Source: Phoronis australis (lineage: Eukaryota > Animalia > Phoronida). From it: a DNA stretch of 64,000 bases. The notes beneath the pieces are model-generated. The model did not search any database and was not told where the DNA came from. It was given only the letters and a program-made list of their open reading frames with translations. Shown piece by piece: positions 3,803-59,564 of this stretch (its first letter is position 1; the number at the start of each line of letters is the position of its first letter). The stretch is from NCBI GenBank assembly GCA_002633005.1, contig NMRA01000079.1, positions 981,148-1,045,147 on the forward strand, read 5' to 3'. Both the position numbers and the translations under genes were made by a program.

Positions 3803-3987
3803 TAGGACCTACATGTACATGTACGCTAGGACCTGCGCTAGGACCTACATGTACGCTAGGACCTGCTCTAGGACCTACATGTATGCTAGGACCTACGCTA
3901 GGACCAATGCTAGGACCTACGCTAGGACCTACGCTAGGAGCTACGCTAGGACGTACGCTAAGACCTACATGTACGCTAGAAGCTAGC
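3803..3987. repeat. Minisatellite: 12-bp unit GCTAGGACCTAC with 18-bp variants carrying an extra CATGTA, inside a MITE-like repeat (~3785-4095)
   Basis: Direct tandem units visible; downstream flank 'gctaaaatct..cacgtg..tttaaaa..gcaat' recurs at ~11130-11230 (-), ~25755-25860 and ~49630-49850. Confidence 0.85.
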
Positions 3988-29500: not shown

Positions 29501-32500
29501 GCAGGCTATGGTTTCTAGACAAACACCTCCAAGGTAAAATTGTGGTTAAGTAGAAAGTGCTGTCGCGGTGGCTGTCTTGTAAAAACAGTGGTTAGTTTAT
29601 TTTTCAACCCTTGCAAAACACCTTGCTGTGTTGCAAACCAGGGGTTGTCTCTACTGTACATACATGTACACGTATACTACTAGCTGAGGATGGTGCCCAT
29701 AGGCAGGATATGGTACCTAGACAAACACCTCCAAGGTAAAATTGTGGTTAAGTGGAAAACGCTGTCGCGGTGGTTGTCGTGTAAAAACGGTGGTTAGCTT
29801 ATTTTCAAAGCCCTTACTAAACACCTTTCTTGTAAACCAAGTGTTGTCTCTACATACGTGTATACTATCAGCTAAGGATGGTCCCCAAGTAATCGTCTTT
29901 TGTGGGCAAACTATGCTGCAGTGATCTGATTGATCACAGAGATCACTAAATCTAAATGGTTGTGTACAAAATATGATATACACTGCCGTTGAATTTAAGA
30001 ATATCGTCATTATTTCATTATTTATTATTTATTATTTCAATAAATGATATATGTATGGTTAAGTGAATGGGCATCCAGACGTCTCGTTACAATGAATAAA
30101 GCCTAAAACTCGCAACCTGTGGGGTACTAATACACGTTGGGTGTCAAACGCATAAAACCAATGCGCGTAAGCAAAAGATACTGTCGATTCTGGTTTTAAC
30201 AACTCGTGGGGCCAACTGGAAAACTTTCTACCATGACTGCAGTCTTTTATAGTATTTACACCGGTGCGACGCAAGAAACGTAAATCTTTCAGTTGAAAAG
30301 CAGACCCCAAATGGCTTGAAGCGGAGACTACGCCTTGCGATCTTCATTACAAAAGCATTCGCACATACTTGGAAGACTAAAGCTATGACTCGCCAAGCAG
30401 GACTTCAAGGTTACTTACGAACAATTTTTCTGGATAAGGTACGATTCCTGTAGAACCTCATCAACTAGTAACTTAGTGAAACTATTTGCTCGATCGCTCC
30501 ACGAATGTCAAATTGCCATAATTCTCTTTCGTAAACAGTAGAATTGAAATTAATCATTTCCAAATTTCACTAAAATTTAGTCTCATCAGTGTTTTGCCTA
30601 CAAAGCTTTGAAGTACCTGGACGTGAGAGGAATTGTCAGTTCGTTTTGGCTTGAGTCCTTTTACTTGGCATGGGATAAGTGATATGCCGGTTGAGTCAAA
30701 GGCTGCATTTGATTGGCGTCACCGATTCCGCCGTTTCAAGCGGCAACGAAATCCGATTGGTTTAAAAACCGAAAGTCGCCATCAAGATTCATACATTTCT
30801 CAAACCTGTTAACATGGCAAAATCTGCAAAGTCAATTAAATAGTTCACAGCATCCATTTTCTTAGTTTTTGACATTTCAGTTAGCTAATATGAAATGAGT
30901 ATCATATAATCCAATTAAATAATCACCATTTATGCCAAATAGTCGCGCTTTTTTCATTTTCAATTTTCCGCAAAATAATCTAATGTGTGGAAGACGTTTG
31001 GTCTATTGACAATCAATTGCAATGGCCAAACACTGTAGATAAGAAGACGATATTGAGCGAGAACTGGACAATTATTTTGCAGACAGTGAGGGGAGAAGAT
31101 TCGGGCATCACACATAAGTAAGCCTACTTGAAGAATCAGACAATGAATTCGATTTCCTATTTAGCGAACTTTCATCGGCTTTGAGGGCATATGAACCCGA
31201 CCCTCTTACACCAGAAATGTGGCAGACATAAAATGTATGTGAGCCTCAACCAACTGAACAAGTGTACTGGTCAATATTCACAAAATTCAAACTTTCTCAC
31301 AAATTCCACAGTAGGCATGGGTCACTCGTTTTTACTTCTATGATGGAATGAGCACGGTTCAAACACAATGCCTAAACCTACGTGTCGTAGCCCTAGATCT
31401 TGGCCGGTGTCGAAGGCATAGCATTACTCACCTTAGAATGTAAGCAGCTTGTTCCTTATCTGCAAATATGCTTACAATATTGCGAGTCCCTCATCTTAAC
31501 GTCGTTTTTGTGTTTGGTTGAAACACGATTCCTTGAAATGTGCCGAACAAAGTGTGTTTTCCGACTGAATGGCATGTTCCACACTGACCTTCCACACTCT
31601 CGTACGGCGCACAAACCAATGACATTTCTGTGCAACTTTCACGTATTTAGGAAATTTGACCACAGAGACGTTCTTAGTCATATTGGTATTACTACAGTCT
31701 CCACAAACGCACCTTTTCATATCTGAAAAAGGCGGCTCTCTGCGGACTTTCCTCAATTATCGCAAAGGTAAAAACAAGAACGGCGGAGACGGTCTTTCAC
31801 ATATTATTTACAATCCTGATATCAGAAAAAAATCTTTTTTAAAATGCTGACTAGTTTCTTAGCAACAGGTACACTAAAGGCTATTGAATCTCTTAAGATG
31901 CATTTATTAGATACAGGGTCATTTAAGTGAACAATGTGTGTTTGCATTTGATAACGTTTTACCTAAGTTATGACTGAGGGACAGCAGAGATACACATTTT
32001 GTCACTTCCACAGACTTTTATTGTATGGAAACTGTTCACGTTACTTGGTTGGATTTTAGGAGCTGTGGTCTCATGTTTCAGTTAAACAAGCTATTTGATG
32101 ACGATCAATTTGGAAACGACGTTGGTATCAGACTGGATTTCCCTTTCATCTACACGATGTCGGATAAGGACGAGGTATGGTGGTTAATCTGCTTAGAGCT
32201 AGGAATAATTCCTTACCAGCATACACGTGCGTCTGTGCACCCATGAGGTGCAGTAAATGCACTAACTGATTTTGCACAGGCTTTCAAGGGCACTGAAGTG
32301 CCCGTGACATACTGTAGCTTGCACGCCCCAAAATGGTGTACAATGAAGTCTAACCCGGCTCGATTACATTATTGTGAAATCATCCTGATCTCATCAAAAA
32401 CGTACAGTCGTGTAAAAATGCATTGTACACATTTTAAAAGCTCTGTCATAATGTTTATTTAAGAAAGTGGTCCATTTTTAGCTTTAGTGTCATAATTTTA

Positions 32501-35500
32501 AATTTAATCGAAAATAAGGAAGTATTTGTAATTCAATCCGTGCGAGCAGACATCTACATGTTCGTGTAGATCGGAAGTTGTTCATTGCTGTTCCAGAACG
32601 AAGTGCTAGAGATGGCGCGGCGTATGAAGACGAGAGCTCCGAATGCAACTGCTTTGTCTTTTCTTCAGTGGGCGGTGAGGAGAGCTGATTACCAAGCCAG
32701 CAAATCACATTTGCCGGTCCTCATTGTAGACGGGTATAAACTCACATCTGAGCTCACCTCTTAGTGTGTTCATTGTTGTAGACTATTTTTGTGATCGATA
32801 ATACAGGAATTTTCAAAACAGTTCACCATTTTAGAAAAGCGACTAAGATAGACGAATATCGCCTACAGGGCGACTTTGAAACCTTCTTCAGAGATAGGAA
32901 CGAGTTCTAAACTTTCGCACTGATATAACAATCAAGTAAACTACTGGGCTTACGTCTGGTAATCAAGTCATTAATTTATGTCCAAAGTGAAAAGTGAAAC
33001 AGTCCTTCACACATTCCAGCCAATGCAATTGATTCTTCCAGTTCGACTGTCTGATTTGACATTTGAAAGAACGACTGGCATTGAAGTAAAGGCTCCTAGC
33101 ATGATATGTCCAGAGTGCATAATAATTTTCTTAAATTCTGATGCAACATCAGTGGTTTGGAAACTTTATGTTTTGTGCTTGCAACTGCAGTAACTTTAAC
33201 ATTTTGCAAAAGTTCAGTAACTGAAGTGGAACCGACTTTGTGGTTGCAAACGTAATTTCTAAGTATGATCCGTGATGGACCTCATTCCGAAAGATCAAGT
33301 GTACCAAACCCTCCCGAGCAAACTCCACGCCAGCCTCACTAAGTTTAGGCACGCGGCAACAATACTACATGTACATGTATGTAACCGCCAATCAAATTTC
33401 TCTCCGTGCCCTTGGATTCGATTCCAAAACGCCCATTGTCAAAATAGACAAACTGGATCAATAATCCGTGTAATGACAAAATTTTTCTCCTCTTCAGCGA
33501 AACGGAGTTTCGTTACTCCGCATACAAAACTGGGCTTTATGTGCACGCAGGAGACATCTGCAACCAGCGCGTTGCTTTGGTGGAGGAAGGTCGCCTACTA
33601 GACAGAAAAGGTGATCCCATATCAGACGTGCAGATGGCGCATGACATAGGGAGGACGTAAGTAACCTATTCTTCCAAAACATAGTTTAACAGCAGATTTG
33701 ACTGTGCAGTCTGAGCATAGCATGCCTCAAGAAATGTCGTCTTAGTGTAAATCCGTCGTACTTTAAAATTACGGATTGAATTACACGTAGATCGCTTCTT
33801 TCAGGAATTTTGTACCACTAGTCTAAACTTGTTCACTTCTCAGATTACATGTGCTCACGGAGTTCGGAAAGGAGTGGCATATTATTTGAGCATAGGTGAT
33901 TGCCACGTCATTCAATTTGAGTATTCATTCAATACCTTTCCAAGTTGGGAGTCAAGTATCCAGGGCCCGGTCTCCAATCTTTTTACTCGAAATGGAACTC
34001 GAAATTAGGTTTGGCTTTTTCTACTCTACTTTTGGGCAAACTCAAGATACATGTAAGTGTCTACTATTCTATGCCCGAGTACACAATAACTTACGTAGAT
34101 AATTTATTGCCCTTAGTTCACAGTTTGTAAACCCAATATTAAAGCAATAATTTCGAGTTTGAACTCGAAATTTCGAGTTTTTACTCGAGTTTGTAGTACG
34201 AATATGAGGGTCTTCAAGGGCAAACTTGAACTTTAAACTCCTATGCATAAACTATAATGTATTCGAGCACAGTCTGATAACCAGTTATCTTACGTTCGCA
34301 CAAAAGGAGCCGAGAAATTGCCAAAATAGTTTCGAGTTCGTTTCGAGTACAAAGATTGAAGACCGGGCCCTGGTTAAAGGCCTATGGTCCGAGTTATAGA
34401 CAAAAAACGTTTAACGCCATTTTAGCCGAGTTTTTTGGTATGACGTAAAGTTCGTATAGATTATTGCCTGGCGAAGTCGTTATCCCCCGTTATCTAGAGC
34501 CCCAGAGGATTTTGGAAAATTATCGCCCAAGGGTGATAATTCTCCAAAATCCATGAGGGCTCTGGATAAGGGGGACAACGACTGGGAACATGTAATAATC
34601 TATTTATACCACATACTGAACGAGAAACATTGCAATGAATCGGTCTACCTTTCTCGACTCGCCTCGGCTTTGTAACTACTTTCTATGTCAGAGGCCCGGG
34701 GTTAGAGGTCGTGACATTTTAAGAAAAACCTAGCTGTTTTTGTCAAATAATGCTTATACTCAAAACCAATTGAAAATTTAAACAAAATAGAAATAAAGTG
34801 AATCTAAAAATTAAGTAAGTGACTATAATGCTCAAGTCAAAGGATCCCGACGACACAATACCCGCATTCAAATTGGAGATCGGCGATTTACAAGTGAGCG
34901 AACACAGAATTAAAGTATCGTTTTTATGGAAATTATGCGTCTTATTTTTCATAGCGTATAAATGTCGGTGCAATGCCCTTTGCTGAACACGCGATTGTTG
35001 CGCGTGCTTATTTAAGTATTCTATTTTCACGTTCGATGACGTCAGCCGCTAAATGGTGTAGTGGTAAGGCACAGGCGCTTGGGTTTATCGCAAATGACGT
35101 CACTCAATAATATATATAAGAAAACATAAAGGTTGGACACTTAAACTTTGCCAAGCCGAGGCTCCCAACTTCAACCGTCCAAAATCCAAATAAAATCTTC
35201 GTGCACCTCCCTCAGTCTGGAAGCCTTATCTTTCCTAGATCTCATTAACTGTCTTCGTGAATGGTGAATTGGCGATGGAATTTCCAAAACAATCTTAAAA
35301 CTCTGAATTCAACGACCTGAAATAGTAAACATGGCGGACTTCAGTTGTGCTTCAACTGGTACGCCTGTCGTACCCGTAGGTGAAACTTCGAGTTTGAGCA
35401 AGCAACCTATATTTCAAGTTCAATAATTCTAATCCAAAACTCAACTAATTGAGAATGTTAAAGTTAATATTTTAATGATTAATATTTGTAACTTTATTCC

Positions 35501-38500
35501 ACTGACGGCTCATTTTAGCCTTTAACTTAGAATTTCATTACATAAACTGGCGTATCTTGTTTCTCATCTTGACATCAGGCACTTTTTTGATTGAAGCACA
35601 ACACACGGAAACGCAGTCCGTGCAAGTATTACAATGCGCGTGGCCGACGAGTTAACTCAATGCTTTTGGCCAAAAGTAAAACCTTCATAAGAAATCACTG
35701 TACACAAAAAACTTCGCATATCAATACAGTATCAGGATAATTTATATTTCACACAAATATGTGAGTAATTACATTTATTTGGCAATAAAGTGCTCTCTGC
35801 TTCTCATGATCAAGTAGTCGATGGATTGACGGCGAAAGCCGCGCGAAATTAGACTTTCGGATTTACCTCGGGAGCGTCCGTCAAAACCCGGATGTGCGAA
35901 GACCGTCTGCCATGTCATCACGGAATTAGGTCCTTGAATTTGTGATTTTGGCATTCTTTTGGCATTTGTGTCGCCAAATCACCACTCGAAGGCAATTTGA
36001 AGAGATCAAATGAAAAAAGGTATTCTAAGAGTTGTTCGATGCTAGTTTCGTGGAGTTCCATGCACATTTGAGTAGAAAATTTTTAGGAAACAGATTTCGA
36101 GTGTCCAACCTTTATGTTTTCTTATATATATATTATTGAGTGACGTCATTTGCGATAAACCCAAGAGCCTGTGTGGTAAAGTCGGCGACTGGAAACTATG
36201 AGGCCCGGGTTTGAATCCGGCCTCGGTTTCCCGCCAAAATGTTTTTTCACTAGTAAGATAACTTCATGGGCTACACGGTTGTAACAGCCATTCGAGGATA
36301 ATGTGGTATAAAAAAGTTATTAACTTTGAATACGTGCACAACATTTGCAAAAGTCGTTTTTAATGTAACCAAGAACTGAGATGTTTACTAGGAATAAAAA
36401 GGATAGTCATTAAAATACAAAATATATTACAATAACGCAACGCATGCGCAGCCACAGGGATCAATAGAGATACAAAATGCGGTGAAGGTGTACTGCCGAA
36501 GGCAAAACGCGGGCGTATTGTTCTACGAGATTCTGAAAAAGACGAGTTAGTCAGTAGAAAAAGCGGCACTACCGACAAACCGTGTACAAAAGCGAGTCGT
36601 TCGAAAGGTGTGAAACAATGAGGACAAGATTGAATCTTCGAACTCGTGAAAATATTGAAAGTCAAGTGGACAAGTAAGTGTGCTGTTTGTAAAATGTTCA
36701 GTGACTCGTACATGTATGTACGCTTCGAGCATTCACTGGGTAACTGATCTCAGTCGACATACATCATACCAGATTTACATTGTATTAAGTCAGTATGAAA
36801 GGGCATTTGTATTGGGATTACCCTGGGGAGGGGTGGGGGGAGTTTGTAGGCCGTGTAAGGGAGGTGTTGCCCACTCTCCCTCACATAGCTTTACTAGAAA
36901 GCTCGTCATGTCCCTGTTGGTCGTAGTGAGTACACTGGGTGGAGAGTTTTGGTCGACATGGCCATCTAAAAGTAATTAGTTCTGCTTTATGTTGAGCACT
37001 TACACATGCCCGTGTAAGTGTAGTTTGATATCTCTTATTCCATTAAATTTTAAAAGAAGGAACAAATGTGACAAACTGGAGCTTATTATAGATAGCCAGT
37101 TTAAAAAGTTTCTGTGCGTTTCCATCTTAGACTTTGCAAGTAAGGAGAATTTTTTTATTTACAACCGGCATGGTCCAAGCACATTACGTGAACCCACAAC
37201 CTCAGAAAACGAGACAATCAAGTCTCACGATTGGAGTAAAAATCTGTAAGTTTTCTCATGTCATGGAATTACTCAATTTTCCAGTTTTTAATAGAATGCA
37301 GATTAGGCAATGTGCTCTAATTTAAGCCTTATTGTTTGCCAATATTAATATTACTTTATCAGTCTTTTATGTTGCTGTCAGGTTAGAATGATCGTGTCTC
37401 AGCTATAAATTTTACCTACTGGTAAGTCAAAGTTGTTTTAAACATTAAGGTATGACATGTTTACTTAAAGTGCATTCTTTAATCTTGGGATTTCTCCTGG
37501 TAAAATGAGACAAATTTTAGTATTTAAACCCTTCTTCGTCACATGCACAATCAGGTTGAGTGCTTTAAACGAGCCGCCCATACAAACTTTCTTTAAAGGA
37601 GTCCCAGACTGGTTATAGAAGCCGATCGCCTAACGAAACCTTGATGTTTTGTTCCATTTTAGTGCCTTAATATCTCATGGGGGGATATTTCACATTTATT
37701 CAGCTCACAACTCTCAATCCTAACCAAATGTATCAACGTGTTTCGTTTAAAGCATTTAAACGTACCTTGTTTAAAGCAATTTGTATTGAGGGAATAATCC
37801 ATGACCCCAATATTTCAGGGTTTACGTGATTCCGACAACTCATTGCCCCACCACTATGCACCAGCAACCTCCTCCCACTCAGCGATTTTTACAAAAAAAT
37901 ACATATATCAAGGCGTTTACATATGAGTTTTCAAAATGACCTCCTTGTGGCGGGCTTGTTTACCAAAAAACTGGTTGGACCTAGATGTCTACGTCTAAAC
38001 AGCCAAACAGCTTACCAAACAAATATTCGAGATATTTTTGAAAGATGAGTGCACTTCGAAGATGATTTGTGGTTTATATTTTGGCAACAGGCGTCACTGC
38101 TGTTCCATATTAAAACAGAACAATGTACATTAAAATGTATGAAACAGTATTTAGTTTTAGTTGTTTATGATAGATTTGTGTAATCCCTTCATCAATCATA
38201 TCTGCGTTATGTTTNAATGAATAAAGCCTAAAACTCGCAACCTGTGGGGTACTAAAACACGTTGGGTGTCAAACGCATAAAACCAATGGGCGTAAGCAAA
38301 AGATACTATCGATTCTGGTTTTAACAACTCGTGGGATCAACTGGAAAACTTTCTGCCATGACTGCAGTCTTTTATAGTATTTACACCGGTGCGACGCAAG
38401 AAACGTAAATCTTTCAGTTGAAAAGCAGACCCCAAATGGCTTGAAGCGGAGACTACGCCTTGCGATCTTCATTACAAAAGCATTCGCACATACTTGGAAG

Positions 38501-41500
38501 ACTAAAACTATGACTCGCCAAGCAGGGCTTCAAGGTTACTTACGGACAATTTTTCTGGATAAGGTACGATTCCTGTAGAACCTCATCAACTTGTAACTTA
38601 GTGAAACTATTTGCTCGATCGCTCCACGAATGTCAAATTGCCATACATGTAACTCTCTTTCGTTAACAGTATAATTGAAATTAATCATTTCCAAATTTCC
38701 CTAAAATTTAGTCTCATCAGTGTTTTGCCTACTAAGCTTTGAAGTAGCTGGACGTGAGAAGAATTGTTAGTTCGTTTTTTTTTTGAGTCCTTTTACTTGG
38801 CATCGGAGAAGTGATGTGCCGGTTGAGTCAAAGGTTGCATTTGATTGGCGTCACCGATTCCGCCGTTTCAAGCGGCAGCGAAATCCGATTAGTTTAAAAA
38901 CCGGAAGCCGCCATCAAGATTCATACATTTCTCAAACCTGTTATCATGGCAAAATCTGCAAAGTCAATTAAATAGTTCCCAGCATCCATTTTCTTAGTTT
39001 TTGACGTTTCAGTTAGCTAATATGAAATGAGTACCATATATTCTAATTAAATAATCACCATTGATGCCAAATAGTCGCGCTTTTTTCATTTTCAATTTTC
39101 CTCCAAGTAATCTAAGGTGTGGAAGACGTTTGGTCTACAGGTGTATTTACAATCAATTGCAATGGCCAAACACTGTAGATAAGAAGACGATATTGAGCGA
39201 GAACTGGACAATTATTGTGCAGACAGTGAGGGGAGAAGATACTGTACGGGCATCACACATACGTAGGCTTACTTGAAGAATCAGACAATGAATTCGATTT
39301 CCCATTTAGCGAACTTTCATCGGCGTTGAGGGCATACATGTATGAACCCGACCCTCTTACACCAGAAATGTGGCAGACATACAATGTATGTGAGCCTCAA
39401 CCAACTGAACAAGTGTACTGGTCAATATTCCCAAAATACGCACTTTCTCACAAATTCCACAGTAGGCATGGGTCACTCGTTTTTACTTCTATGATGGAAT
39501 GAGCACGGTTCAAACACAATGCATAAACTTACGTGTCGTAGCACTAGTGTCCAAGGCATAGCATTACTCGCCTTAGAATGTAAGTAGTTTGTTCCTTATC
39601 TGCAAATACGCTTACAATATTGCGAGTCCCTCATTTTAACGTTTTTTTCTGTGTTTGGTTGAAACACGATTCCTTGAAGTGTGCTGAACAGTGTGTTTTC
39701 CGACTGAATCGCATGTTCCACACTGACCTTCCACACTCTCGTGCGGCGCACAAACCAATGCCATTTCTGTGAAACTTTTACGTACAGTATTTAGGACATT
39801 TGACCACAGAGATGTTCTTAGTCATATTGGTGTTACTACAGCCTCATCAAACGCACCTTTTCATATCTGAAAAAGGTGGCTCTCCGCGGACTTTCCTCAA
39901 TTATCGCAAAGGTAAAAACAAGAACGGCGGAGACGGTCTTTCACATATTATTTACAATCCTGATATCAGGAAAAAATCTTTTTTAAAATGTTGACTAGTT
40001 TCTCAGCAACAGGTACACTAAAGGCTATTGAATCTCTTAAGATGTATTTATTAAGTTCTTTTTGAGATACAGGGTCATGGCGGGAACTGTTTAAGTGAAC
40101 AATGTATGTTTGCATTTGATAAAGTTTTACCTAAGTTATGACTGAGGGACAGCAGGGATACACATTTTGTCACTTCCACAGACTTATATGGTGTGGAAAC
40201 TGTTTACGTTACTTGGTTGGATTTTAGGAGCTGTGGTCTTATGTTTCAGTTAAACAAGCTATTTGATGACGATCAATTTGGAAACGACGTTGGTATCAGA
40301 CTGGATTTCCCTTTCATCTACACGATGTCGGATAAGGACGAGGTATGGTGGTTAATCTGCTTAGAGCTAGGAATAATTCCTTATCAGCATACACGTGCGT
40401 TTGTGCACCCATGAGGTGCTGTAAATACACTAATTGATTTTGCATAGGCTTTCAAGGGCACTGAAGTGCCCGTGACGTACTGTAGCTTGCACGCCCCAAA
40501 ATGGTATACAATGAAGTCTAACCCGGCTCGATTACATTATTGTGAAATCATCCTGATCTCATCAAAAACGTACAGTCGTGTAAAAATGCATTGTACACAT
40601 TTTAACAGCTCTGCCATAATGTTTATTTAAGAAAGTGGTCCATTTTTAGCTTTAGTGTCATAAGTTTAAATTTGATCGAAAATAAGGAAGTATTTGTAAT
40701 TCAATCCGTGCGAGCAGACATCTACATGTACATGTACGTGTAGATCTGAAGTTGTTCATTGCTGTTCCAGAACGAAGTGCTAGAGATGGCGCGCCGTATG
40801 AAGACGAGAGCTCCGAATGCAACTGCCTTGTCTTTTCTTCAGTGGGCGGTGAGGAGAGCTGATTACCAAGCCAGCAAATCACATTTGCCGGTCCTCATTG
40901 TAGACGGGTATAAACTCACATCTGAGCTCACCTCTTAGTGTGTTCATTGTTGTAGACTACTTTTGTGATCGATAATACAGGGATTTTCAAAATAGTTCAC
41001 CATTTTAGAAAAGCGACTAAGATAGACGAATGTCGCCTACAGGGCGACTTTGAAACCTTCTTCAGAGATAGGAATGAGTTCTAAACCTTCGCGCTGATAT
41101 ACCAATCAAGAAAACTACTGGGCTTACATGTACGTCAGGTAATCAAGTCATTAATTTATGTCCAAAGTGAAAAGTGAAAAAGTCCTTCACACATTCCAGC
41201 CAATGTAATTGATTCTTCCAGTTCGACTGTCTGATTTGACATTGGAAACAACAGCTGGCATTGAAGTAAAGGCTCCTAGCATGATATATCCAGAGTGCAT
41301 TAATTTTCTTAAATTCTGCTTAGGCACGCGGCAACAATACTATGTAACCGCCAATCAAATTTCTCTCCGTGCCCTTGGATTTGATTCCAAAACGCCCATT
41401 GTCAAAATAAACAAACTGGATCAATAATCCGTGTAATGACAAATTTTTCTCCTCTTCAGCGAAACGGAGTTTCGTTACTCCGCATACAAAACTGGGCTTT

Positions 41501-44500
41501 ATGTGCACGCAGGAGACATCTGCAACCATCGCGTTGCTTTGGTGGAAGAAGGTCGCATACTAGACAGAGAAGGTGATCCCATATCAGACATGCAGATGGC
41601 GCATGACGTAGGGAGGACGTAAGTAACCTATTCTGCCAAAACAAACATCTAGTTTAACAGCAGATTTGGCTGTGCAGTCTGAGCATAGCATGCCTCAAGA
41701 AATGTCGTCTTAGTGTAAATCCGTCGTTCGTTAAAATTACGGATTGAATTACACGTAGATCGCTTCTTTCAGGAATCGATATCTTGTACCACTAGTCTAA
41801 ACTTGTTCACTTCTCAGATTAAACGTGCTCACCGAGTTCGGAAAGGAATGGCAGATTATTTGAGCATAGGGGAATGCCACGTCATGCAGTTTGAGTATTT
41901 ATTCAATACCTTTCCAAGTTGGAAGTCAAGTATCCAGGTTAAAGGCCTGTGGTCCGAGTTATAGACAAAAAACGTTTAACGCCATTTTAGCCGGGTTTTT
42001 TGGTATGACGTAAAGTTCATATAGAATATTACATGGCGAAGTCGTTATCCCCCGTTATCTAGAGCCCGAGTGGATAATATTGTGGTATAAAAAAGTTATT
42101 AACTTTGAATACGTGCACAACATTTGCAAAAGTCGTTTTTAATGTTACCAACAAATGAGATGTTTACAAAGAATAAAAAGGATAGTCATTAAAATACAAA
42201 AGATATTACAATAACGCAACGCATGCGCAGCCACAGGGGCAATACCGATACAAAATGCAAAGGTGTACTGCCGAAGGCGAAACGCGGGCGTACTGCTCTA
42301 CGAGATTCTGAAAAGGACGAATTAGTCAGCAGAAAAAGCGGCACTACCGACAAACCGTGTACAAAAGCGAGTCGTTCGAAAGGTGTGAAACAATGAGGAC
42401 AAGATTCAATCTTCGAACTCATAAAAATATTGAAAGTCTTTCGATGGACAAGTAAGTGTGCTGTTTGTAAAATGTTCAGTGACTCGTATGTACATATGTA
42501 CGCTTCGAGCGTTCACTGCATGGGTAACTGATCTCAGTCGACATACATCAGACCAGATTTATTCTGAAGTTAATTCAGTCAGCTGTTCAGTGTTTCTCCT
42601 GTGATTTGTTGCCTTTACTTATACCGATTCACACTGGCTGAGACTAATTAGTAATTTACACTTGTGAGTGCCAGGTCCTTTCATACTAACGTCGATCCGG
42701 CGATATTATGGGGATTTGCGGTCAATGTGAACGGTTAACTTCGGTCCGTGACCCAAGTTAACAACGCCAGTTAACTTCGCCGTTAACAGGTGACTTATCA
42801 GCGGAGCGCAGACGCTGCGGTGCAGTATGAACGGTCCTTGAACTTCGGTCCCATCGAAGTTATCGCCAGGAGGCACTGTTATCGTCAACGATTACAGAGC
42901 AGTGTTCTCGCTAATTGGTTGCTCATATTTTGCTCAATTCGAATTAGAACTAGGTTTTTGTGCCAATGATTAGCTCGTCAATATTCCCAAATTATAACAT
43001 AGCGTGCAAGCGATGAATCAGCGCTACCTCGCGATTACTTCGATGACAACAGCGCCAGCCACCGTTTACTTCGATGTCCGTTAACTACCGAAGCCTTTAT
43101 GAACGGTTCAGTTAACTTCGCAGTTTACGCTCAGACCGGAGTTAAGTCATTATGAAAGGGCATTTGTATTAGGATAGCAGTTGCCCTGGGGGAGGGGTGG
43201 GGGGAGTTTTTAGGCCGTGTAAGGGAGGTGTTGCCCACTCTCCCTCACATAGCTTTATTAGAAAGCTCGACTTGTCCCTGTTGGTCGTAGTGAGTACACT
43301 GGGTGGTGAGTTTTGGTTGACATGGCTGTCTACATGTAATTACATGTAGTTCTGCTTTATGTTGAGCACTTACACATGCCCGTGTAAGTGTAGGTTGATA
43401 TCTCTTATCCCATTAAGTTTTAAAAGAAGGAACAAATGTGACAAACTGGAGCTTATTATAGATAGCCAGTTTAAAAAGTTTTTGTGCGTTTCCATCTTAG
43501 ACTTTTCAAGTAAGGAGAATTTTTTTATTTACAACCGGCATGGTCCAACCACATTACGTGAACCCACAACCTCAGAAAATGAGACAATCAAGTCTCACGA
43601 TTGGAGTAAAATTCTGTAAGTTTTCTCATGTCACGGAATTTCTCAATTTTCCAGTTTTGTATCGAATGCAGATTAGGCAATGTGCTCTAATCCTTATTGT
43701 TTGTCAATATTAATATTACTTTATCAGTCTTTTATGTTGCTGTCAGGTTAGAATGATCGTGTCTCAGCTATAAATGTTACCTACTGGTAAATCAAAGTTG
43801 TTTTAAACATTAAGGTATGACATGTTTACTTAAAGTGCATTCTTTAATCTTGGGATTTCTCCTGGTAAAATGAGACAAATTTTAGTATTTAAACCCTTCT
43901 TCGTCACATGCACAATCAGATTGAGTGCTTTAAACGAGCTGCCCATACAAACTTTCTTTAAAGGAGTCCCAGACTGGTTATAGAAGCAGATCGCCTAACG
44001 AAACCTTGATGTTTTGTTCCATTTTAGTGCCTTAATATCTCATGGGGGGATATTTCACATTTTATTCAGCTCACAACTCTTAATCGTAACCAAATGTGTC
44101 ATCGTGGTCGTGTAAAGCATTAAAACTTACCTTGTTTAAAGCAAATTGTATTGCGGGAATCATCCATGACCCCAATATTTCAGGGATTACGTAATTCCGA
44201 CAACTCTTTACCCCACCACTATGCACCAGCAACCTCCCCCCACTCAGCGATTTTTACAAAAAATACATTTACCAAGGCGTTTACATATGAGTTTTCAAAA
44301 TGACCTCCCTGTGGCGGGCTTTTTTACCAAAAAACTGCAGGTTGGACCTAGATTTCTACGTCTAAACAACCAAACAGCTTACCAAACAAATATTCGAGAT
44401 ATTTTTGAAAGATGCGTGCACTTCGAAGATGATTTGTGGTTTATATTTTGGCAACAGAACAATGTACATTAAAATGTATGAAACAGTATTTAGTTTTAGT

Positions 44501-47500
44501 TGTTTATGATAGATTTGTGTAATCCCTTCATCAATCATATCTGCGTTATGTTTTTATCAGTGGTTTGTAAGATTTCCAGTTGAGCTAAGAACAGTTACAA
44601 AGTAACGACTTTGCCAATGAACTGGCTTAGAAATGTATTTTAACTGCAATCGAATTTGAAACTTTGTGTATCCACAGACCTTCTTTTGATTACCCTAAAA
44701 CAATTAATTATCATGCCCATGTTGCAGCATTCCAGGCTTGGCTATCCAAAACTCACAGGCGTTATAAAACAATTATCTGTTTAACCAGTAGCACAGAACT
44801 TTTATTACGCTGTGTTTACTGACACAGGCAAACTGGGATATTGCGTGATCAAGAACAGGCTTCACTGCACTTGCATGTCACTTTCACAAGGCTTATAGCT
44901 TGGGAGTTAGAAACCGATGATCTGCAACCACAAATACCCATGATATACATGTACCACCATCACCATTACTACAAGCCAGTGTTTTGCCTAGTTGCCCCTT
45001 CCAAGCCCACAATGGGACCTAAGTCCACTCGTCTCCCCTAAATTCGCGTTTGTATGGTTTTATCTTGTCGATTCAATGTCACCGCTTCAGATTCACATAT
45101 TCTTGTCTGAGTTTTCAGTATAGATGCCTCAGAACGCATTTTAAACTGAAGGTCTTCTTACAAATGTCACTATTGCCATATTGCAGCGATTCAGAGCTGC
45201 TGTTCACCCTTGTCCTTATCTTCTTTGCATCCTTACAATCTGCCATAAAGTTTGTGTCTACTCTTGTACAGACTCTGTGCTCTTTTGGAAATTAAGGTAG
45301 ATATAAGCCTGCCTACTGTCAATAAACCAATTTTTCATTTGAACCAAGTATCATTAGTATGAAATTGATCTCGAATCGTTCCTTGATAAAAGTAGGTGTG
45401 AATTTCGGGCTAGAAAATTTCTAACAATTTGTTATTATTCGATAAAGTTTCCTTACGTTGAATTGTCACAGCATGTCATTTTATTCACTTGACATGATCT
45501 CAACCATAGTGAACTGCCAGATCTGTTCAAGACCAAAACTGATCTCAATAAGGAATAAGGAAAATGCCGAGACCAATTCTATACTTAAACGTATAGTTAA
45601 AACGAAACGTCAATTTGCTTGGATAGATTAAGGTAGCCACAGTAATTGTTCTGCAAAAATCCAACTCTGTCGTCCCTGAATGTTTGTTTATTGTTGCTTC
45701 CTGATAGACGATGGTAGTATAAACCTTATTTGAGCATGATGAAACAGTTGCGTGGTAGCTATATTCATTCAACGGCTGGTGAGTAGCACTTGGGTTCAAT
45801 TTCCAGTCTTAGAACTCTAGGATCCATGTTAAAAGGTTTTGCTTTGGCCATGAAAAGTTATGATGCGATGAAGATTCATATCAAGAATCAAATGACAATG
45901 TGCATTAGTTCATACATCATCTTTCTAACTTGTAACCTCTCACACTTGTTGATACTAGCTTTCAGTCGGTGGAATGGGGGCGGTAATCATTGGCTGTACC
46001 CAACGGTGGTTTTCTTTGCATCGTTTCTTTGGTTATGGTGCTTCCGTGCTCAATTGTATTGTACTTTTGCACAATCTTTTACAGGCTATAACGGTACTTT
46101 AGTGAGAAATCCAAGAAGTGTGCAGTTTATATATCACCTATTTCACGAAAGCGCCATCTTCCCGCGCCATCTTTAAATACTGATCGAAAACGAGGCACAC
46201 TGATAAAACCTCGTGAGTGATCATCAGCTGGCCATGGTGTACTGTGCAGTGCCTGAACGTACCAATTCCAGTAATATCTTGTCGGTATCCTTCCCAGGGA
46301 TATGCTTAGCCATTCGCCCAGTCACCAATGCTAGTAAAAATGGTGCTGGGTGAGTAGAAGTTGACTTGCCGGTCGCCCGGTGGCGAGCGAATTTCAGAGC
46401 GCAAAAGCACTATATATCGTTTCCCAGATGAATATGAATAATTTTCCTCCTCCTTGTGCTGTTTTTATCATGAATTTAAGGTTCAGTTTGGTCATCGTGT
46501 CGATGCTCCGGCAGTAAAAAACATCGGCGCAGTGCGAACCTACCGATTCAGTACATGTCACCCGTTACGCGATTCGTCAAAAAACACAGTGTGTGGTCGT
46601 GCACAAAGAATTTGTGGACTAGTCCGAAACGAAGAAAAGGGGAGAAAGGTGGAAGACCGGTCCATGTGCTCATAGCAAATAAAATACCATATTTCTTGGA
46701 ACTGATTTCTTATTGTAATGTACAATGTCATTTTAGCCAAAATTATTTTTATAACATTCGTCCTAATAAGCGCCCATGCCCCTATAAGCGTCCCCACTCG
46801 TTTTCAGACTTCGCTAAAATAAGCGCCCAGTCCATGAATGTGTATATATCAGTGCGAAAAATGTCTTACCTCACAGTTCTAAAATTCTACAGTAAATGTA
46901 TTCAATTTATCAATAATATCCGACAGTTCTGAAAAATCATTGTGCGCGTAATTTCTAGTAGACCACGAGCCTCGCCGCTATGTCGGTATTTAGCCGTGGC
47001 TGTACACTTCAAACCATTCCGCAGTGCTTCAAAAAGAACGCAAAAGATTTGCTGATCTTGCGCGGAAAGTGTCACACTACATGGTCTGGCCCTGATCAGA
47101 ACAGACGCAGCGTACTCAGGTCAACGGGATTGGTATTGTATCTTTCCCGTACAGATCTTCTCCCACAACAGGAATCCAGATTGTTTTGTACACGAAAAAT
47201 TATAAAAACCGCGAATCGAAACTTGGCCAAGAAGCGCGCGCTAGGGCCCACATATAACATGTGGGCCTGCTCAATGAGATAAATATACTACATTATACAG
47301 CTCATTGGGCCTGCTACTCTGGCAAATGAACACTGATGACACGCACGCGCTCGCTCACTCGGTGCACACCAGCTGATTCACTTCAATACAAACGTCACGT
47401 GACAACAACATATGTGTTCGTCCAGATTTTTCTCGTTGCGGGGTGCGATCTAGCGCAGATTTTGACTTAATCTGCGGTTAATCCCGACTCCGAGTCCACA

Positions 47501-50500
47501 GGAACTTAAGAATCTTAGGAAAGGCTATTTGGGAGGATTTCAGGTAATTTGAGTCGAAACTATTTTTACTCAAGAATTCAAGTTGTCCTATCGACGATCG
47601 CGAAGCAGCGACGCATCAGTCGGCAAGTTTTCGCCCTGGGATTTCAGCACATTTTTTTTAAAAAGATCGTAATTTAACAACAGAGTTTGATAGCAATGCA
47701 CCACAGTTTTGTAGCTAGTCTGTCATAGGTTACACATACGTCACAGCGCGTAAATTTGATGAATCCTAGCTTCCGATTTCACCCGTTTCGGAGACCAGGT
47801 TTTAACTGCCGTAGGCTACAAAAAGAGTCCCCCTGGGCGCTTATTAGAGCGAATACGGTAGCCCTAATAGATGGTGACATCAGTGCACGAAACGATGATT
47901 TTTATTTAAATTAGCAGCAAGTTTGTGGTGACTGGCGCCAACGGCCGGGTGACCGAACTTCGGGCTTGGCGAGTAGATTTTCTGGCTCCGGCACTCACCC
48001 AGCTCCGGGCGAGCAGAAAAGCCTGGATATATCCCTGACTTCCACACTTTTTCAAAAGAGGGAAAACTATAAGGAATGGCTGAGGAGGGTAAAAGTCTAG
48101 TTGCCATAAGTATTGGTATGTTTTTGGAGATCGATTCAACATCAGACAACTTGATTTTTGGTAACGTTGATAAGTCTTTTGACCACAACAACTTGCAGGA
48201 CGATGCAATGTTTGTCAAGGCGCCGCGTTTTCGAGCAACACGACAGCAGCGCCCCGCGTTCGTGAAAGAGGTGAATACAGCACTGCAACTGGTGTCCATA
48301 ATTAGTATACATGTATGCTTGGGAGAAGATCACGGCGTGCACAAACTTGACACATGAATTCCAGGGTCCAGCCTGTCCATTGCTTGGAGGTCAATGGTCT
48401 TGCAATGGCAACAAATGATAACTGATCTATCAAACGAAACTATCACTGCCTTTGTGAACACTTAACAATTGACACTATCTTTAAAGTTCCTTTTGTACAA
48501 TAGCTTGACCTTGATAAAACCTGTAGTCATCACAACAGGACACAGTAGTATTTTTCATCTTATCAATTTACTGTTCAGTAGGGCCTATACATGTACAAGT
48601 TTAGCATTTTACTTTAGATTATATACGTTTAATAAACCAGCACTGCTTGATGACTGTCTCCTACATGCGACTCCAATACAGGGATACAGGACCTGCTTTG
48701 TAATTGAAGTGTTCATGTAACTTGGTTCAGGTTGAGTCTATCATCTGCTTTTGTCGATCCCGGTGGTAGTTTGAATTGACTACGTAATTAAAATAAATGC
48801 GTCCATGACTTAAGCATATTACGATTTATTACATGTCATGTAGCAACTCTTGTTTGCATTTTCATGTATGTGATGTTGAGAATTACTGCTGTGAAATGCA
48901 TTTGTTGTTGTGCAGGTTAAACTTTGGCACGGAAAATCCATTCTGTTCGTTAATGTGATTGCGTCATTGCTGTTAAAGCTACTATAAACATGCCTTCCAT
49001 CAAATAAACCAACTCTTGATTTTGACTATTTATTGTCTCGGCCCATTCCTTACCCATAAGTGCAAGTGATTCCTGGAATTAGAAAAAAATGGCCTCAGCT
49101 TATGAAGTTGGCTTGAAACAGCGTGTCAATTTTCTAGGTGAATTCTTTCCAAGCCAAGAAACCTATCCTCACGTTCATACACAATGCAAGTCTAAGCAGT
49201 ACATGGGTAACAGTGATACATTATATTCCATAGGATACACATTAATGCAAATTGAAATTTCACTGTTCTAACTGTTTCGGACCAATTATGTTTAGTTCTC
49301 GAGTTAACTTGTCAATACTGACGCTAGAAATCTGATAGCAGTCGACATTCAAGGACGATGGTTTTCGAAGCACACGTTAGGCCCTCTGTCCTGTGATCTG
49401 ATGGATTGTGTTCTTGATAACGTGAGTCGCATACTCAAACTCCGAAAAGGGTACAAAAGATAAAAGCAAGAACTTTTACCAACCTCCCACTGTCCCTAGC
49501 CTTTTATTTACAAAATCGAGACCATACCACCGATAATACAAAGTCAACGAGTATGTTTTATTGGTTTCTGTGCAGTATCACGGTATTTTTAAAACGGATC
49601 ATGTGAATTGAATGTTCGGTAACACTAGTATTCGCTGAAATGTGGCCGAAATCACATGGTCTAATTTAAAATGCTCTGCAATATCTCACGTAATCTTGTT
49701 AAGTCTTGTTCTTATCGAGGTCCTAGCATTACTGAACTCTACCCAAGTTAGGGTTATGTAACGCTAGGATCTGCGGAAGGTCCCACGAGGTTGTTTGATA
49801 TAGTGCCGCGTGTTTTTAATGAGAACATGCTCGTAAAATTGATATTTCTAGTCGCGAGTCAGCTACATGTAGTGAGCTCTACCCTTTTTTAAATACAGAT
49901 CGGTACTGCAATATAATTGAAGGTTTGAAACAAAAGCATTGCCAAAGCACCTACTGTATAAACCTGCGTGCAATCCAAAAAGCGGACTTTAGATTAAAAC
50001 GGTCAAACCTTGATGGCATTTGTGCCCGCATAATTACCGCTTTGTTAAACTAACATGTAGTCTGGCTTCCGTCAAGTATTACGATTCCTACTGTATGTTC
50101 TTTACAAGGCGTGAAATGATCTCTTTCCTAGGGGATATTTTGGTATCAATTTGAGTGGCCTTTGATAAATCAAAATATTCTTGTTTGGTAACAGAACTGA
50201 GACCTGCCTTATTGAATATAAACNTAGCATTACTGAACTCTACCCAAGGTAGGGTTATGTAACGCTAGGATCTGCGGAAGGTCCCACGAGGTTGTTTGAT
50301 ATAGTGCCGCGTGTTTTTAATGAGAACATGATCGTAAAATTGATATTTCTAGTCGCGAGTCAGCTACATGTAGTGAGCTCTACCCTTTTTTAAATACAGA
50401 TCGGTACTGCAATATAATTGAAGGTTTGAAACAAAAGCATTGCCAAAGCACCTACATGTACTGTATAAACCTGCGTGCAATCCAAAAAGCGGACTTTAGA

Positions 50501-53500
50501 TTAAAACGGTCAAACCTTGATGGCATTTGTGCCCGCATAATTACCGCTTTGTTAAACTAACATGTAGTCTGGCTTCCGTCAAGTATTACGATTCCTACTG
50601 TATGTTCTTTACAAGGCGTGAAATGATCTCTTTCCTAGGGGATATTTTGGTATCAATTTGAGTGGCCTTTGATAAATCAAAATATTCTTGTTTGGTAACA
50701 GAACTGAGACCTGCCTTATTGAATATAAACTCTGGGAATGAATTACATACTTGGAGTGGTTCGGTCAGGATTTTTTTATGTTCTTTTTCAGTTTAGGTCT
50801 GCCAGGAAACCAGCTATCATGTTCCGAGGGCATTATGGAATCCCGGGAGACGCATAAAGGTTGGTCCGCTTGTAGCAAGCAGAAATTAAAGAAGATACTA
50901 AGGTACTGAAATTAAACCTTCTACTAACCAAGGCTTTACATGTTACTTAAACGTTAAAGTATATTTGAGAACAGACGACTTGGTTTCTTTTGCTGACATC
51001 GCTTTTTGCATTCATGAACATAATTTAAAGTGATGTCATTACCGACAACATCGTGTGCTACGCATGCGCAACCCAAGAACGGAAGCCTCAAGAGAAAAAC
51101 CTGGTGACATGTACCATCAAGAGATGATTGACTACACGAATCGAATAACTACATGTATTCAGATGAACGGAGGGCGGTAATAGTTCCCGTAGTCACAGTA
51201 GTTTTCTATATAGGCCTACACTGGACAATTAAACGTACGAAATCCACGCATAAAACCGCAATTACAGATCACTCTTTTTAGAATCCTTTCTAATCCTGAC
51301 CAAATCTCGACAAAATCTCCTCAGGTTTTCTATGTTCATTTTGTCGAAGTTGTTACAATTCATTTCGCAAGTCCATTGTATCAAGTGACATTTAATGCCC
51401 AAGCAAACTAGTAACGTAGATCAATTACACTGTGAACACTATTTTATTGCGACTAAAGGTCGAACAAACTTCTTAAGTCGGAGTTCTGTCGAATTTTGCA
51501 TATACTATTTTGAAAAATACTTTAGACTGGGCTAGCCCAGCTTTCAGTTACATGAACACAACATCGCCTAACCCCACCTATCATTCACATGTTGATCATT
51601 TCGGTGTGACCGCAATGAAATTTATCTGGCAATGGAAACGTGTGACTTACAAAACAACACCAATGTGCAAGCTGCCGCATTGACTGAATCTTCGGGATTT
51701 TGACTGGATGCCTTAAGCATTGTTGGTTGTTATCAACATTTGTTGGCATCCATGCTTGATTACCCCTAACAACAGAACAATCATTTATCGTTCAAACTTG
51801 CATATTTATAAGAAAACGCACAGACGTGGATAACATCTGGTGGACAGACGTCCTATTTGACGCCTTACGACAAATTAGGGTAACATTTTAAGAAAAGGGA
51901 CACATTAAGATGGCCGATATCCTGGCAGATAACTTGCGACAGCCTTTCGCCAATAGAGCCTAATCAAAAATCATTTAATTGGAATGTATACATTTAGGTA
52001 TATCATTGCCAGAGTAAATTGGTGTGTTTTGTATCCCAACACAATTAAGAAATAGCTACCGTGATTACACTTTCCGTCAATGGCGGAATCTGGCAAAGCT
52101 AGTGCCTCGTCTTCATTTTTCGCAAAGTAACCTGTTCTACGAAAAACAGCCTTGCTCTGCCATCTGATTCGTTGGCAGACGCTTAAAAGGAAGAACTGAC
52201 TACGGTTTGTTTCATCATGCGTGTGGTAAAATAATACTCCTTGTGATCGTAGGGCACGGAAGCATTGTCAAAGGGTGTGTACTTTTGACAATCATCCTCC
52301 ACTAAATTTGTTCACAAGATCACTTTACTCCATTCCCAGCGACCCGTGGATATACTCTTGCTTGGAATATCAAGAAGGTTCCATGCCAGTGCCGAAGGCT
52401 TCTCTTGGCCTTATTTCAGCGGAGGACTTTGAGGCAATCAAACAAAACTGTAATGATGACATGGTTGCTACTCACTGGGTATACAAAGGCAAGTTCTCCA
52501 GGACAATTAGCTACACACTTCTCGCCAGACGCTTCTCGCCATGGGTAAGTCGGCTAGGGACACAGAGCATTGTTTGAGAATACATATATTTCGTGTTCAC
52601 TAGTCAAAAATGCCCTTGTACCTCTTGGCCCCATTCATGTTTCAGTGTTAAAGAGTTCCAAGTATTAATTAAAGGTGTATTTGCATGAACCTAACTATGC
52701 TAATAAATAGCAGGAACTAAACGTCAATCTATTTTAACTTCATATGCACTAAACGAGGTGCAGATGTATTCGTAGACACAATGTAAATGTAAAAACAAAA
52801 AATAGGAAATAGGTGGCCTTTGCACGAATGGCGTATCTTAGGCGCTCGCATAGCCAAGGTCATGCACTGTTATTCCTCACAACCACGTCACGATAATTAC
52901 TGGATTCGGTTGAGTGATTTACGGAGGATCATTTTCGACCCAAAATTCGTCCAAAAAAACATTTGGCAGTTTTCAACCTACTTCATATTCACATAATCGC
53001 TTGTTTCTAACTAATGTGACCAACTATGAAACAATTACAGCAATAAGGAATTAGCGTGCATGTTCCACTTTAAATTCTAACCGTGTCAGTCTGTCAAACT
53101 CATTGCATTATTACGTGCAGAGCTACCTAAGATAGAACTGAGGGACCCACATGGATTATATGTGTGCTTGTATGCTACATCTAATTTCCCAACATCAACC
53201 TAAATCAACGCTTCCACTTACCAAGCTATCGCGTAGTCTAGTACACGTTAATCTTTAAGACCGGCCTCTTTCGTCAGTGGATAAGGGAATGTTCATGCAC
53301 AGTGAGGGTATTTGACATCGCCACTGCCCGGGTGAGATTGTGGATTATGAAAACTAAATATGTCTTTGGAAATCGAACTCGGTTTTTCATCGGCAACAGA
53401 CGAATTTAGAATGGTTTGCCAAAATCTTAGCTGCCTGAGTAGCACAATAACGGGTTGAATTGTATACATCACTGCACAATAGTGCTTAACTGGGTGGTCT

Positions 53501-59308: not shown

Positions 59309-59386
<78 letters not shown>
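59309..59386. repeat. Interrupted (TA)n microsatellite
   Basis: Direct inspection. Confidence 0.95.
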
Positions 59387-59387
<1 letters not shown>

Positions 59388-59564
59388 TCAAACTTATGAT
59401 GCTACAAATTCACTGATATTTAGTAAATCCCACGTCAACTCAACTGCTTCATTCAGCCTATTTTAGGACATTTAGCGAAGCCGATATCAACTCAACAACT
59501 TCATTTTTTAATTTTATCGTTCATTGCAAACACATTACTACTTCGTGAAATCAATCGTGTTTAA

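What the first reader, a model, noticed from the sequence alone, without database searches (positions are those of the whole stretch)
38644..50460. Polymorphic TA->TACATGTA / TACAGTA insertions: probable Tc1/mariner excision footprints
Seen by comparing duplicated copies: a plain TA in one copy is TACATGTA in the other at 38644, 39335, 41125, 43341 and 50453, and doubly at 33366. It is TACAGTA at 39783 and TACAGGTGTA at ~39135. TACATGTA is also conspicuously common throughout the window. Established: Tc1/mariner elements duplicate TA and leave TA + terminal bases (CA/TG, CAG/CTG) + TA on excision. Inference: about seven such events in ~6 kb of aligned sequence imply very high cut-and-paste turnover, or a dedicated micro-insertion process, shaping the k-mer spectrum.
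Basis: partly seen in the sequence, partly recalled or inferred. Interest (0 to 1): 0.7.

Follow-up and report, generated by a model that had tools for sequence, protein, structure and literature searches.

The report
Transposon exit scars dominate small indels
Two versions of one stretch of this animal's DNA differ at ten places where a plain TA has gained a few letters, mostly becoming TACATGTA; these are likely scars left when cut-and-paste jumping genes hopped in and out, although the jumping gene itself was not found, and they make up about half of the small insertions and deletions of four letters or more in that stretch.

Summary
Read depth shows the 'duplicated copies' are alleles, i.e. 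uncollapsed haplotypes 3.8% apart. In 6,128 aligned bases, 10 of 21 indels of 4 bp or more are TA→TA·CA…/…TG·TA, with one more ambiguous. Six of nine 6-bp indels are exactly TACATGTA (chance 0.25% each). An in-window paralog lacks the extra bases at 4 of 4 sites it spans, so these are insertions.

TACATGTA occurs 34 times against about 1.3-2 expected. Its relatives CA·N·TG, CAG and CTG are also in excess and stack with it at single TA sites. One kind of break fits the whole spectrum: TA flanks with two-base CA overhangs, as Tc1 leaves, then filled, trimmed or padded and rejoined.

Against it: no CA…TG element or transposase is in the window, scars outnumber occupied TA sites 10 to 0, and a second individual showed 0 of 8 such indels elsewhere (low depth). 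No genome was available. This scan reported the same pattern before in sea-urchin, mollusc and diatom DNA. Verdict: probable Tc1/mariner footprints at an unusually large natural scale; culprit unidentified.

The parts
38644..38651 (.). TACATGTA in haplotype B; TA at 30519 in haplotype A
   Evidence: not polarised
39136..39145 (.). TACAGGTGTA in B; TA at 31004 in A
   Evidence: the paralog lacks the insert
39240..39246 (.).
39335..39342 (.). TACATGTA in B; TA at 31190 in A
   Evidence: the paralog lacks the insert
39783..39789 (.). TACAGTA in B; TA at 31644 in A; shifts the frame of a THAP-like relic that is open in A
   Evidence: filled allele carried by an exact-match contig of run X3 (record 18)
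40723..40736 (.).
   Evidence: both alleles in run contigs (records 2, 10, 19)
41125..41132 (.). TACATGTA in B; TA at 32951 in A
43341..43348 (.). TACATGTA in B; TA at 36977 in A
50453..50465 (.). TACATGTACTGTA: a new CATG unit on an older TA-CTG-TA (empty allele at 49952); one of only 3 differences in 500 bp
   Evidence: both alleles in run contigs (records 8, 16, 24)
33366..33383 (.). TACATGTACATGTATGTA in A: two CATG units on an older TA-TG-TA (41341 in B)
42487..42500 (.). TATGTACATATGTA in B against TACATGTATGTA at 36709 in A: compound site, order of events unclear
29652..29668 (.). mixed stack TACTGTACATACATGTA in an older 200-bp tandem duplication (about 80% identity); the other copy has fewer units
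14519..14542 (.). four-unit mixed stack TA-TG-TA-CAG-TA-CATG-TA-CAATG-TA
14342..14357 (.). stack TA-CATG-TA-CAGGTG-TA (second occurrence of the CAGGTG unit)
12467..12481 (.). stack TA-CAGTG-TA-CATG-TA
59338..59348 (.). TA-CACAGTG-TA interrupting a (TA)n microsatellite
3810..3973 (+). 12-bp tandem array in which four positions carry TACATG (one doubled); another copy of the family near 11230 lacks it at the position matching 3966
   Evidence: read by eye; may have been multiplied by unequal exchange
30086..38214 (+). haplotype A
38216..44553 (+). haplotype B (carries 8 of the 9 clear scar sites of this pair)
49724..50730 (+). 500-bp allelic overlap on either side of the N at 50224
10395..11470 (-). 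paralogous repeat copy (65-69% identity) used as outgroup
31499..31756 (-). THAP-domain-like open frame of the repeat relic in A (E 1.4e-4; 23 bits, below Pfam's 23.9 cut-off)

Best explanation
The added letters are insertions at TA sites that differ between two alleles, and they are likely excision footprints of Tc1/mariner-type elements ending CA...TG, which would insert at a TA, duplicate it, cut out again and leave a two-base CA overhang on each flank for host end-joining to repair. Filling both overhangs would give TA-CATG-TA (the dominant product). Losing one base would give TA-CAG-TA or TA-CTG-TA, losing one side TA-CA-TA or TA-TG-TA, and adding filler bases TA-CA-N(1-3)-TG-TA. A second family with a three-base stagger, as in Sleeping Beauty, could equally make CAG/CTG. 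The new TA of a scar is likely a favoured landing site, so scars stack. Shown: the indels, their allelic state, their excess, insertion polarity at four sites, independence from the flanking sequence, stacking, and a decayed older class. Inferred: the element, the overhang, the repair route, re-targeting, and a residence time short against the age of the two haplotypes.
For: (1) 10 of 21 indels of 4 bp or more have the form TA-CA.../...TG-TA, and 6 of 9 six-base indels are exactly TACATGTA (P 2e-14). (2) The paralog lacks the insert at 4 of 4 spanned sites, while it sides with A's extra 11 bp at 31396, so the test can also call deletions. The empty allele keeps a THAP-like frame open at 39783. 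(3) The insert is the same whatever the flanks (ct|cg, at|gt, cc|ct, ca|at), so it is not copied from them. (4) Spectrum in de-duplicated DNA, observed against order-2 expectation: CATG 34 vs 1.3; CA[CG]TG 7 vs 0.85; CA[AT]TG 7 vs 0.95; CAG/CTG 19 vs 10.2. Control palindromes CCGG, CTAG and CGCG are 0 each. The equal excess of both middle-base classes fits fixed CA and TG ends with a filler base. (5) Mixed stacks: 12 observed vs 0.9 simulated (maximum 3 in 60 runs). 11 of 68 TACATGTA sides continue into another unit, vs 2.2% of other TA sides (4.4% when matched for the next base). (6) One-mismatch words 74 vs 34 expected, so there is an older decayed class. (7) Literature passages: Tc1 breaks have non-complementary two-nucleotide 3' overhangs (PMC4490562); taCATGta is a rare Tc1 footprint (as stated in PMC3520976); TATGTA/TACATA are 73-78% of somatic Tc1 footprints (PMC12632400); Sleeping Beauty leaves cag or ctg (PMC5224488). 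(8) Flank bias: a pyrimidine follows TACATGTA on 54 of 68 sides vs 50% after other TAs, as a target preference would give.
Against: (1) No TA-CA...TG-TA inverted-repeat element in the window: 3 weak pairs vs 4 in a reversed control. No transposase domain among 219 open frames of 62 aa or more. (2) 10 scar sites against 0 element-occupied TA sites in the same alignment. In rice, Mariner insertions outnumber excisions 2.6-2.8 to 1 (PMC4423477; their count needs the element in the other genome, so it is not the same measure). (3) In C. elegans the full CATG product is rare and CA/TG dominates; here CA/TG shows no clear excess (52 vs 42, p 0.08). (4) The only TA-flanked mariner-like relics seen have CC ends (about 46750-47861 and 58895-59262), yet TACCGGTA is 0 and TA(CCG|CGG)TA 7 vs 3.9-4.6. 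(5) In 12200-17790 a second individual (run X5) showed 8 indel rows in single-copy DNA, 3 of them 4 bp or more, none of scar type; depth there averaged about 4. (6) Six of the 10 clear sites are not polarised, and the outgroup is only 65-69% identical. (7) The order-2 model also flags TAGGCCTA (4 vs 0.5) and TACATATA (14 vs 2.7), so modest excesses need caution.
Confidence: 0.72

Rival explanations
1. A dedicated micro-insertion process adds CA(N)TG-TA at TA without a full element ever residing there, for example abortive integration by a transposase-like enzyme or capture of a fixed short oligonucleotide during repair.
For: 10 scars to 0 occupied sites. No element or transposase in 64 kb. The insert is more uniform than in C. 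elegans. The same mixed stack occurs with unrelated flanks in 117 metagenome loci of 26-61% GC, and only a few of those loci show a TA-CA...TG-TA inverted repeat.
Against: I know of no such enzyme (recalled, not searched for as such). The TA duplication plus CA/TG ends with trimming and filler is what Tc1-type cuts give. A few hundred to a thousand mobile copies in an animal genome would usually be absent from 64 kb (inference). Locus L009 holds two ~90-bp TA-CAG...CTG-TA elements, one about 50 bp from such a stack (unrelated organism, single case).
Confidence: 0.16
2. Ordinary slippage and generic indels, with TACATGTA kept by selection as a transcription-factor site.
For: TACATGTA is reported as an Irx-family preferred site and as an abundant Phytophthora promoter motif (PMC3520976), bound by PsMyb37 (PMC11134190). 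The event at 40723 is a tandem duplication, and the second unit at 33366 could be.
Against: Nine of the 10 clear sites are not tandem copies of their flanks. Stacks mix different units. Four inserts fall in a decayed repeat relic. Selection cannot create the same six bases in unrelated contexts.
Confidence: 0.05
3. The long alleles are ancestral and the short ones arise by deletion between the two TA repeats of an abundant word.
For: TA...TA gives two-base microhomology; six sites are unpolarised.
Against: 4 of 4 polarised sites are insertions, and it does not explain why the word is about 20 times too common.
Confidence: 0.04
4. Library or assembly artefact (adapter, restriction junction or scaffolding filler).
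For: The alleles lie beside single-N joins of a draft assembly.
Against: Separately assembled contigs of runs X1-X3 (one sample, possibly the window's source) carry the filled allele at 39783, 40723 and 50453 and the empty allele at others. Decayed copies are in excess. Sites are shared between alleles (49864/50365, 32310/40478).
Confidence: 0.02

Closest known systems
Tc1 excision footprints in Caenorhabditis elegans (PMC4490562, PMC12632400, PMC3520976: passages read; Eide and Anderson 1988 and Plasterk 1991 seen only as cited, not held)
   Same: TA target, two-base 3' overhangs, products TACATA, TATGTA and taCATGta.
   Different: There TATGTA/TACATA make up 73-78% of somatic events, taCATGta is called rare, and germline repair is Pol-theta-driven and varied. 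Here the fully filled CATG product dominates heritable alleles and no element is identified.
Sleeping Beauty canonical footprint cag/ctg (PMC5224488: passages read)
   Same: TACAGTA (39783) and TACTGTA (39240, 29652) are the same words.
   Different: A minor class here (19 vs 10 expected). It can also arise by one-base trimming of a CA+TG junction, so it does not prove a three-base stagger.
Natural DNA-transposon excision polymorphisms between two rice species (PMC4423477: abstract and passages read)
   Same: Excision seen as a source of natural variation in genome comparison.
   Different: There only 8 of 94 excisions were clean, most deleted flanks or added filler, and insertions outnumbered excisions. 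Here flanks are intact, the scar is stereotyped, and empty-versus-scar pairs outnumber occupied sites 10 to 0.
Phytophthora motif-1 / AM-20 TACATGTA (PMC3520976, PMC11134190: passages read)
   Same: The same abundant octamer in non-coding DNA.
   Different: Read there as a transcription-factor site; the footprint idea was raised and dismissed because of its abundance and conservation. Here the word is caught arising by insertion.

Membership tests
Tc1/mariner excision footprint | Single TA in the empty allele, two TAs around the extra bases in the derived allele | tested here: met
   10 clear sites; at 39240 the A allele reads TT but the paralog reads TA
Tc1/mariner excision footprint | Extra bases are a gain, not the ancestral state | tested here: met
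   4 of 4 sites spanned by the paralog; 6 of 10 sites untested
Tc1/mariner excision footprint | Extra bases do not come from the flanks | tested here: met
   same CATG in unrelated contexts; 1 of 10 sites is a tandem duplication
Tc1/mariner excision footprint | Extra bases equal the terminal bases of a resident TA-targeting element (CA...TG) | tested here: inconclusive
   none in the 64-kb window; no genome held; no DNA of this organism among the metagenome loci
Tc1/mariner excision footprint | A DD34E/D-type transposase source in the genome | tested here: inconclusive
   0 of 219 window frames of 62 aa or more match a transposase family; rest of the genome not available
Tc1/mariner excision footprint | The element-occupied allele exists at the same site | tested here: inconclusive
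   0 of 10 in the two haplotypes; loose-end tables list only the best-supported rows, all from high-copy repeats
Tc1/mariner excision footprint | Excision by the cognate transposase yields this product | not testable with these tools
   needs an excision assay
Hairpin-type footprint (hAT, CACTA; mechanism recalled) | Inserted bases are inverted copies of the flank | tested here: not met
   insert constant while flanks vary
Replication-slippage duplication | Insert repeats the adjacent bases | tested here: not met
   1 of 10 clear sites flagged as tandem

The most novel reading that the evidence does not exclude
A hit-and-run mutator, either an extremely short-lived Tc1-type element or a transposase-like activity that leaves only CA/TG ends, writes TACATGTA into TA sites at up to one event per 20-25 point mutations and re-targets its own scars. 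It would be a leading source of small indels in many invertebrate and microbial eukaryote genomes, and the origin of an abundant octamer that is elsewhere read as a transcription-factor site (Phytophthora motif-1) and could have been co-opted as one.
Probability: 0.2. Interest if true: 0.8.

Novelty: new variant of a known kind. Interest (0 to 1): 0.5.

Why it matters
Footprints of this kind are known from laboratory excision assays. Seven paper searches found no report of them as a leading class of natural small indels or as the source of a genome's most over-represented 8-mer; subscription journals are largely missing from that library. If right, cut-and-paste activity can be dated and measured from scars alone, even where the element is gone. 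Repeat content would then understate past mobility, and motif-finding in such genomes would need a scar-aware background. It also reopens the dismissed idea that the Phytophthora TACATGTA motif began as a footprint.

Tried and rejected

Searches for TA-flanked CA...TG inverted repeats in the window found nothing above control. Pfam on 219 open frames gave only CUB exons, a sub-threshold THAP hit and a low-complexity hit; frames in haplotype B's aligned part and the second 500-bp copy were left out as duplicates.

A metagenome scan with a high-copy repeat end of this organism found 0 loci. The 117 loci of the second scan had no BLAST match to the window. They were selected for carrying the stack, so their spectrum (CATG 103 vs 10.6, CAG/CTG 124 vs 57 in 305 kb, with 4 satellite-like loci and the hit regions removed) shows spread, not frequency.

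Extra substitutions near scars: 5.6% within 10 bp vs 4.1% overall, permutation p 0.12-0.24, not supported. Skew of scars to haplotype B (8 vs 1, p 0.04) is not significant once B's longer branch is allowed for (26 vs 14 derived substitutions; p 0.12).

One search's indel table showed 12 of 136 rows, all from high-copy repeats, so run X5 could not be genotyped at the scar sites. The protein atlas gave only generic CUB clusters at scores under 0.9, so the animal group was not determined. The lancelet paper PMC4284660 (passages, and its one held supplement) had no mention of footprints. Two classic Tc1 papers were not held. bioRxiv supplements are closed and were not seen.
Full report
Observation. 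Self-alignment shows 30086-38214 repeated at 38216-44553 and 49724-50223 at 50225-50730, each pair split by a single N. Six colinear blocks give 6,128 aligned columns, 235 substitutions (3.8%) and 39 indels, 21 of them 4 bp or longer. Four large presence/absence segments were left outside the blocks. Eleven of the 21 read TA in one copy and TA-X-TA in the other. X is CATG at 38644, 39335, 40723, 41125, 43341 and 50453; CATG twice at 33366; CAGGTG at 39136; CTG at 39240; CAG at 39783; and TG at the compound, ambiguous 42487. A random deletion of these lengths has that form 0.3-0.7% of the time, and a six-base one gives exactly TACATGTA 0.25% of the time. Six of nine has P 2e-14. The word occurs 34 times in 56,453 de-duplicated bases against 1.3-2.2 expected, and it is the top 8-mer.

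The copies are alleles. Five public runs were listed: X1-X4 are one sample, possibly the window's source, and X5 is another sample of the same species. I laid X5, X1, X2 and X3. In 12200-16335 one X1 contig covers everything at depth 42.9, which I take as the two-copy level. On haplotype B, contigs specific to one form have depth 25-27, and summed depth in the five repeat-free bins is 37-64, not the ~86 that two loci would give. X5 depth on those bins averages 5.4, against 5.6 in an unduplicated bin and 4.1 (a stricter likeness was used). Contigs match the filled allele at 39783 (X3 record 18, no differences), 40723 (X2 record 10, no differences) and 50453 (six-letter gaps in records 8 and 24, none in 16), and the empty allele elsewhere. 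For 38644 and 39136 the listed records show only the empty form.

Direction. Part of the pair lies in a repeat with an inverted paralog at 10395-11470 (65-69% identity). The paralog lacks the extra bases at 39136, 39240, 39335 and 39783, i.e. 4 of 4 sites. It keeps A's extra 11 bases at 31396, which is therefore a deletion in B. At 39783 the empty allele keeps a THAP-like frame open and the filled one shifts it. Six clear sites have no outgroup.

Anatomy. The insert is constant while the flanks vary, which excludes hairpin-type and slippage origins for most sites; only 40723 is a tandem duplication. Related words form a series (order-2 expectation): CA[CG]TG 7 vs 0.85; CA[AT]TG 7 vs 0.95; CAG/CTG 19 vs 10.2; CA..TG 5 vs 2.1 (p 0.065); CA/TG 52 vs 42 (not significant); CG 8 vs 14. 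CCGG, CTAG and CGCG are absent, while GGCC (4 vs 0.5) and TACATATA (14 vs 2.7) are also raised. Units stack at one TA: 12 stacks vs 0.9 simulated, for example four different units at 14519-14542. Eleven of 68 TACATGTA sides run into another unit, against 2.2% of other TA sides (two of those sides are the same pair counted from both ends). At 33366, 40723 and 50453 the new unit sits on an older one. One-mismatch words are in excess (74 vs 34), about the ratio to intact words that steady accumulation would give (my inference).

Mechanism. Tc1 excision leaves non-complementary two-nucleotide 3' overhangs (PMC4490562, passages). With CA on each TA flank, filling both gives TACATGTA; trimming gives TACAGTA, TACTGTA, TACATA or TATGTA; filler bases give CA-N-TG. 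One break type thus explains the whole series, though a Sleeping-Beauty-like family could add CAG/CTG (PMC5224488, passages). These steps are inferred. Stacking suggests the scar's TA is a good target; hot sites in open chromatin would do the same, and I could not separate the two.

What does not fit. No TA-CA...TG-TA element and no transposase frame is in the window, and no genome was held. Ten scars face no occupied TA site, so elements would have to leave much faster than the haplotypes diverged. In C. elegans the CATG product is called rare (PMC3520976) and CA/TG dominates (PMC12632400). The TA-flanked relics seen here end in CC, and their scars are not in excess. In 12200-17790 run X5 showed 8 indel rows in single-copy DNA, none of scar type, at depth about 4.

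Rate. Ten sites per 235 substitutions is about 1 in 23, or 2.3% of 438 TA sites. The standing density of 0.58 per kb predicts about 1.1 CATG events for that divergence if words decay only by substitution; 7 sites (8 units) are seen (p about 1e-4). The pair is therefore a hot stretch, reflects a recent rise, or was picked because it stands out. The genome-wide rate is probably lower.

Elsewhere. A 19-base mixed stack occurs in at least 117 metagenome loci with unrelated flanks. Their surroundings show the same series of words, but they were chosen for the stack and none matches this organism. Earlier notes of this scan report the same reading in sea-urchin, echinoderm, mollusc, diatom and algal DNA. 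They are unchecked AI notes and not support; two of them led me to PMC3520976 and PMC12632400, which I read in passages. Nothing was noted for this genome or look-alike stretches.

Comparison and verdict. It works like a Tc1 excision footprint, and three defining features were met. Membership stays open because element, transposase and occupied allele were not found in the little DNA available. Seven paper searches found no account of such scars as a leading natural indel class (listings only, except the papers named). The nearest natural survey, in rice, found mostly untidy excisions (PMC4423477, abstract and passages). In Phytophthora the same octamer is treated as a transcription-factor site, and the footprint idea was dismissed. 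I rate the footprint reading at 0.72, the novelty as a new variant of a known kind, and interest at 0.5.

Noticed in passing
window 27285-29553 and 52230-58088 (+): Two paralogous intron-containing genes with CUB-domain exons; none of six approximate exon stretches holds TACATGTA.
   Followed up: partly
window 30858-31756 / 38990-39899 and 10395-11470: Repeat family of roughly 20 copies (depth) with a THAP-like frame; likely a DNA-transposon relic, more decayed in haplotype B.
   Followed up: partly
window 33961-34372: ~410-bp inverted-repeat element present in A only, flanked by CAG and CTG where B has CAG; resembles Harbinger elements with CWG targets (label recalled).
   Followed up: partly
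window 16268-16792: High-copy element (several hundred copies by depth) with CAT...ATG inverted ends; P-element-like (label recalled); not flanked by TA in this copy.
   Followed up: partly
window 18068-18610 and 59561-59782: TTAA-flanked element with AGG...CCT inverted ends, Kolobok-like (label recalled).
   Followed up: no
window ~46750-47861 and 58895-59262: Decayed TA-flanked mariner/pogo-like relics with CC ends and AATAA(G/A)CGCCC motifs; their predicted scars are not in excess.
   Followed up: partly
window 42570-43145, 34510-36300, 33140-33343: Three more large presence/absence differences between the haplotypes; the first lies between TTAA words, the second holds a ~1.1-kb inverted-repeat element (35070-36173).
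   Followed up: no
window 38216-44553: Haplotype B is the more derived one (26 vs 14 substitutions against the paralog, p 0.08); run X5 carries A's letter in all reads at 7 sites in 38507-38700.
   Followed up: partly
L009 2382-2475 and 4070-4164: Two ~90-bp TA-flanked elements with CAG...CTG inverted ends in an unrelated contig, one about 50 bp from a scar-like stack.
   Followed up: partly
L013, L017, L068: Satellite-like arrays built of TACATG, TACAG, TACAGG and TACAATG units; may be scar stacks later amplified.
   Followed up: no
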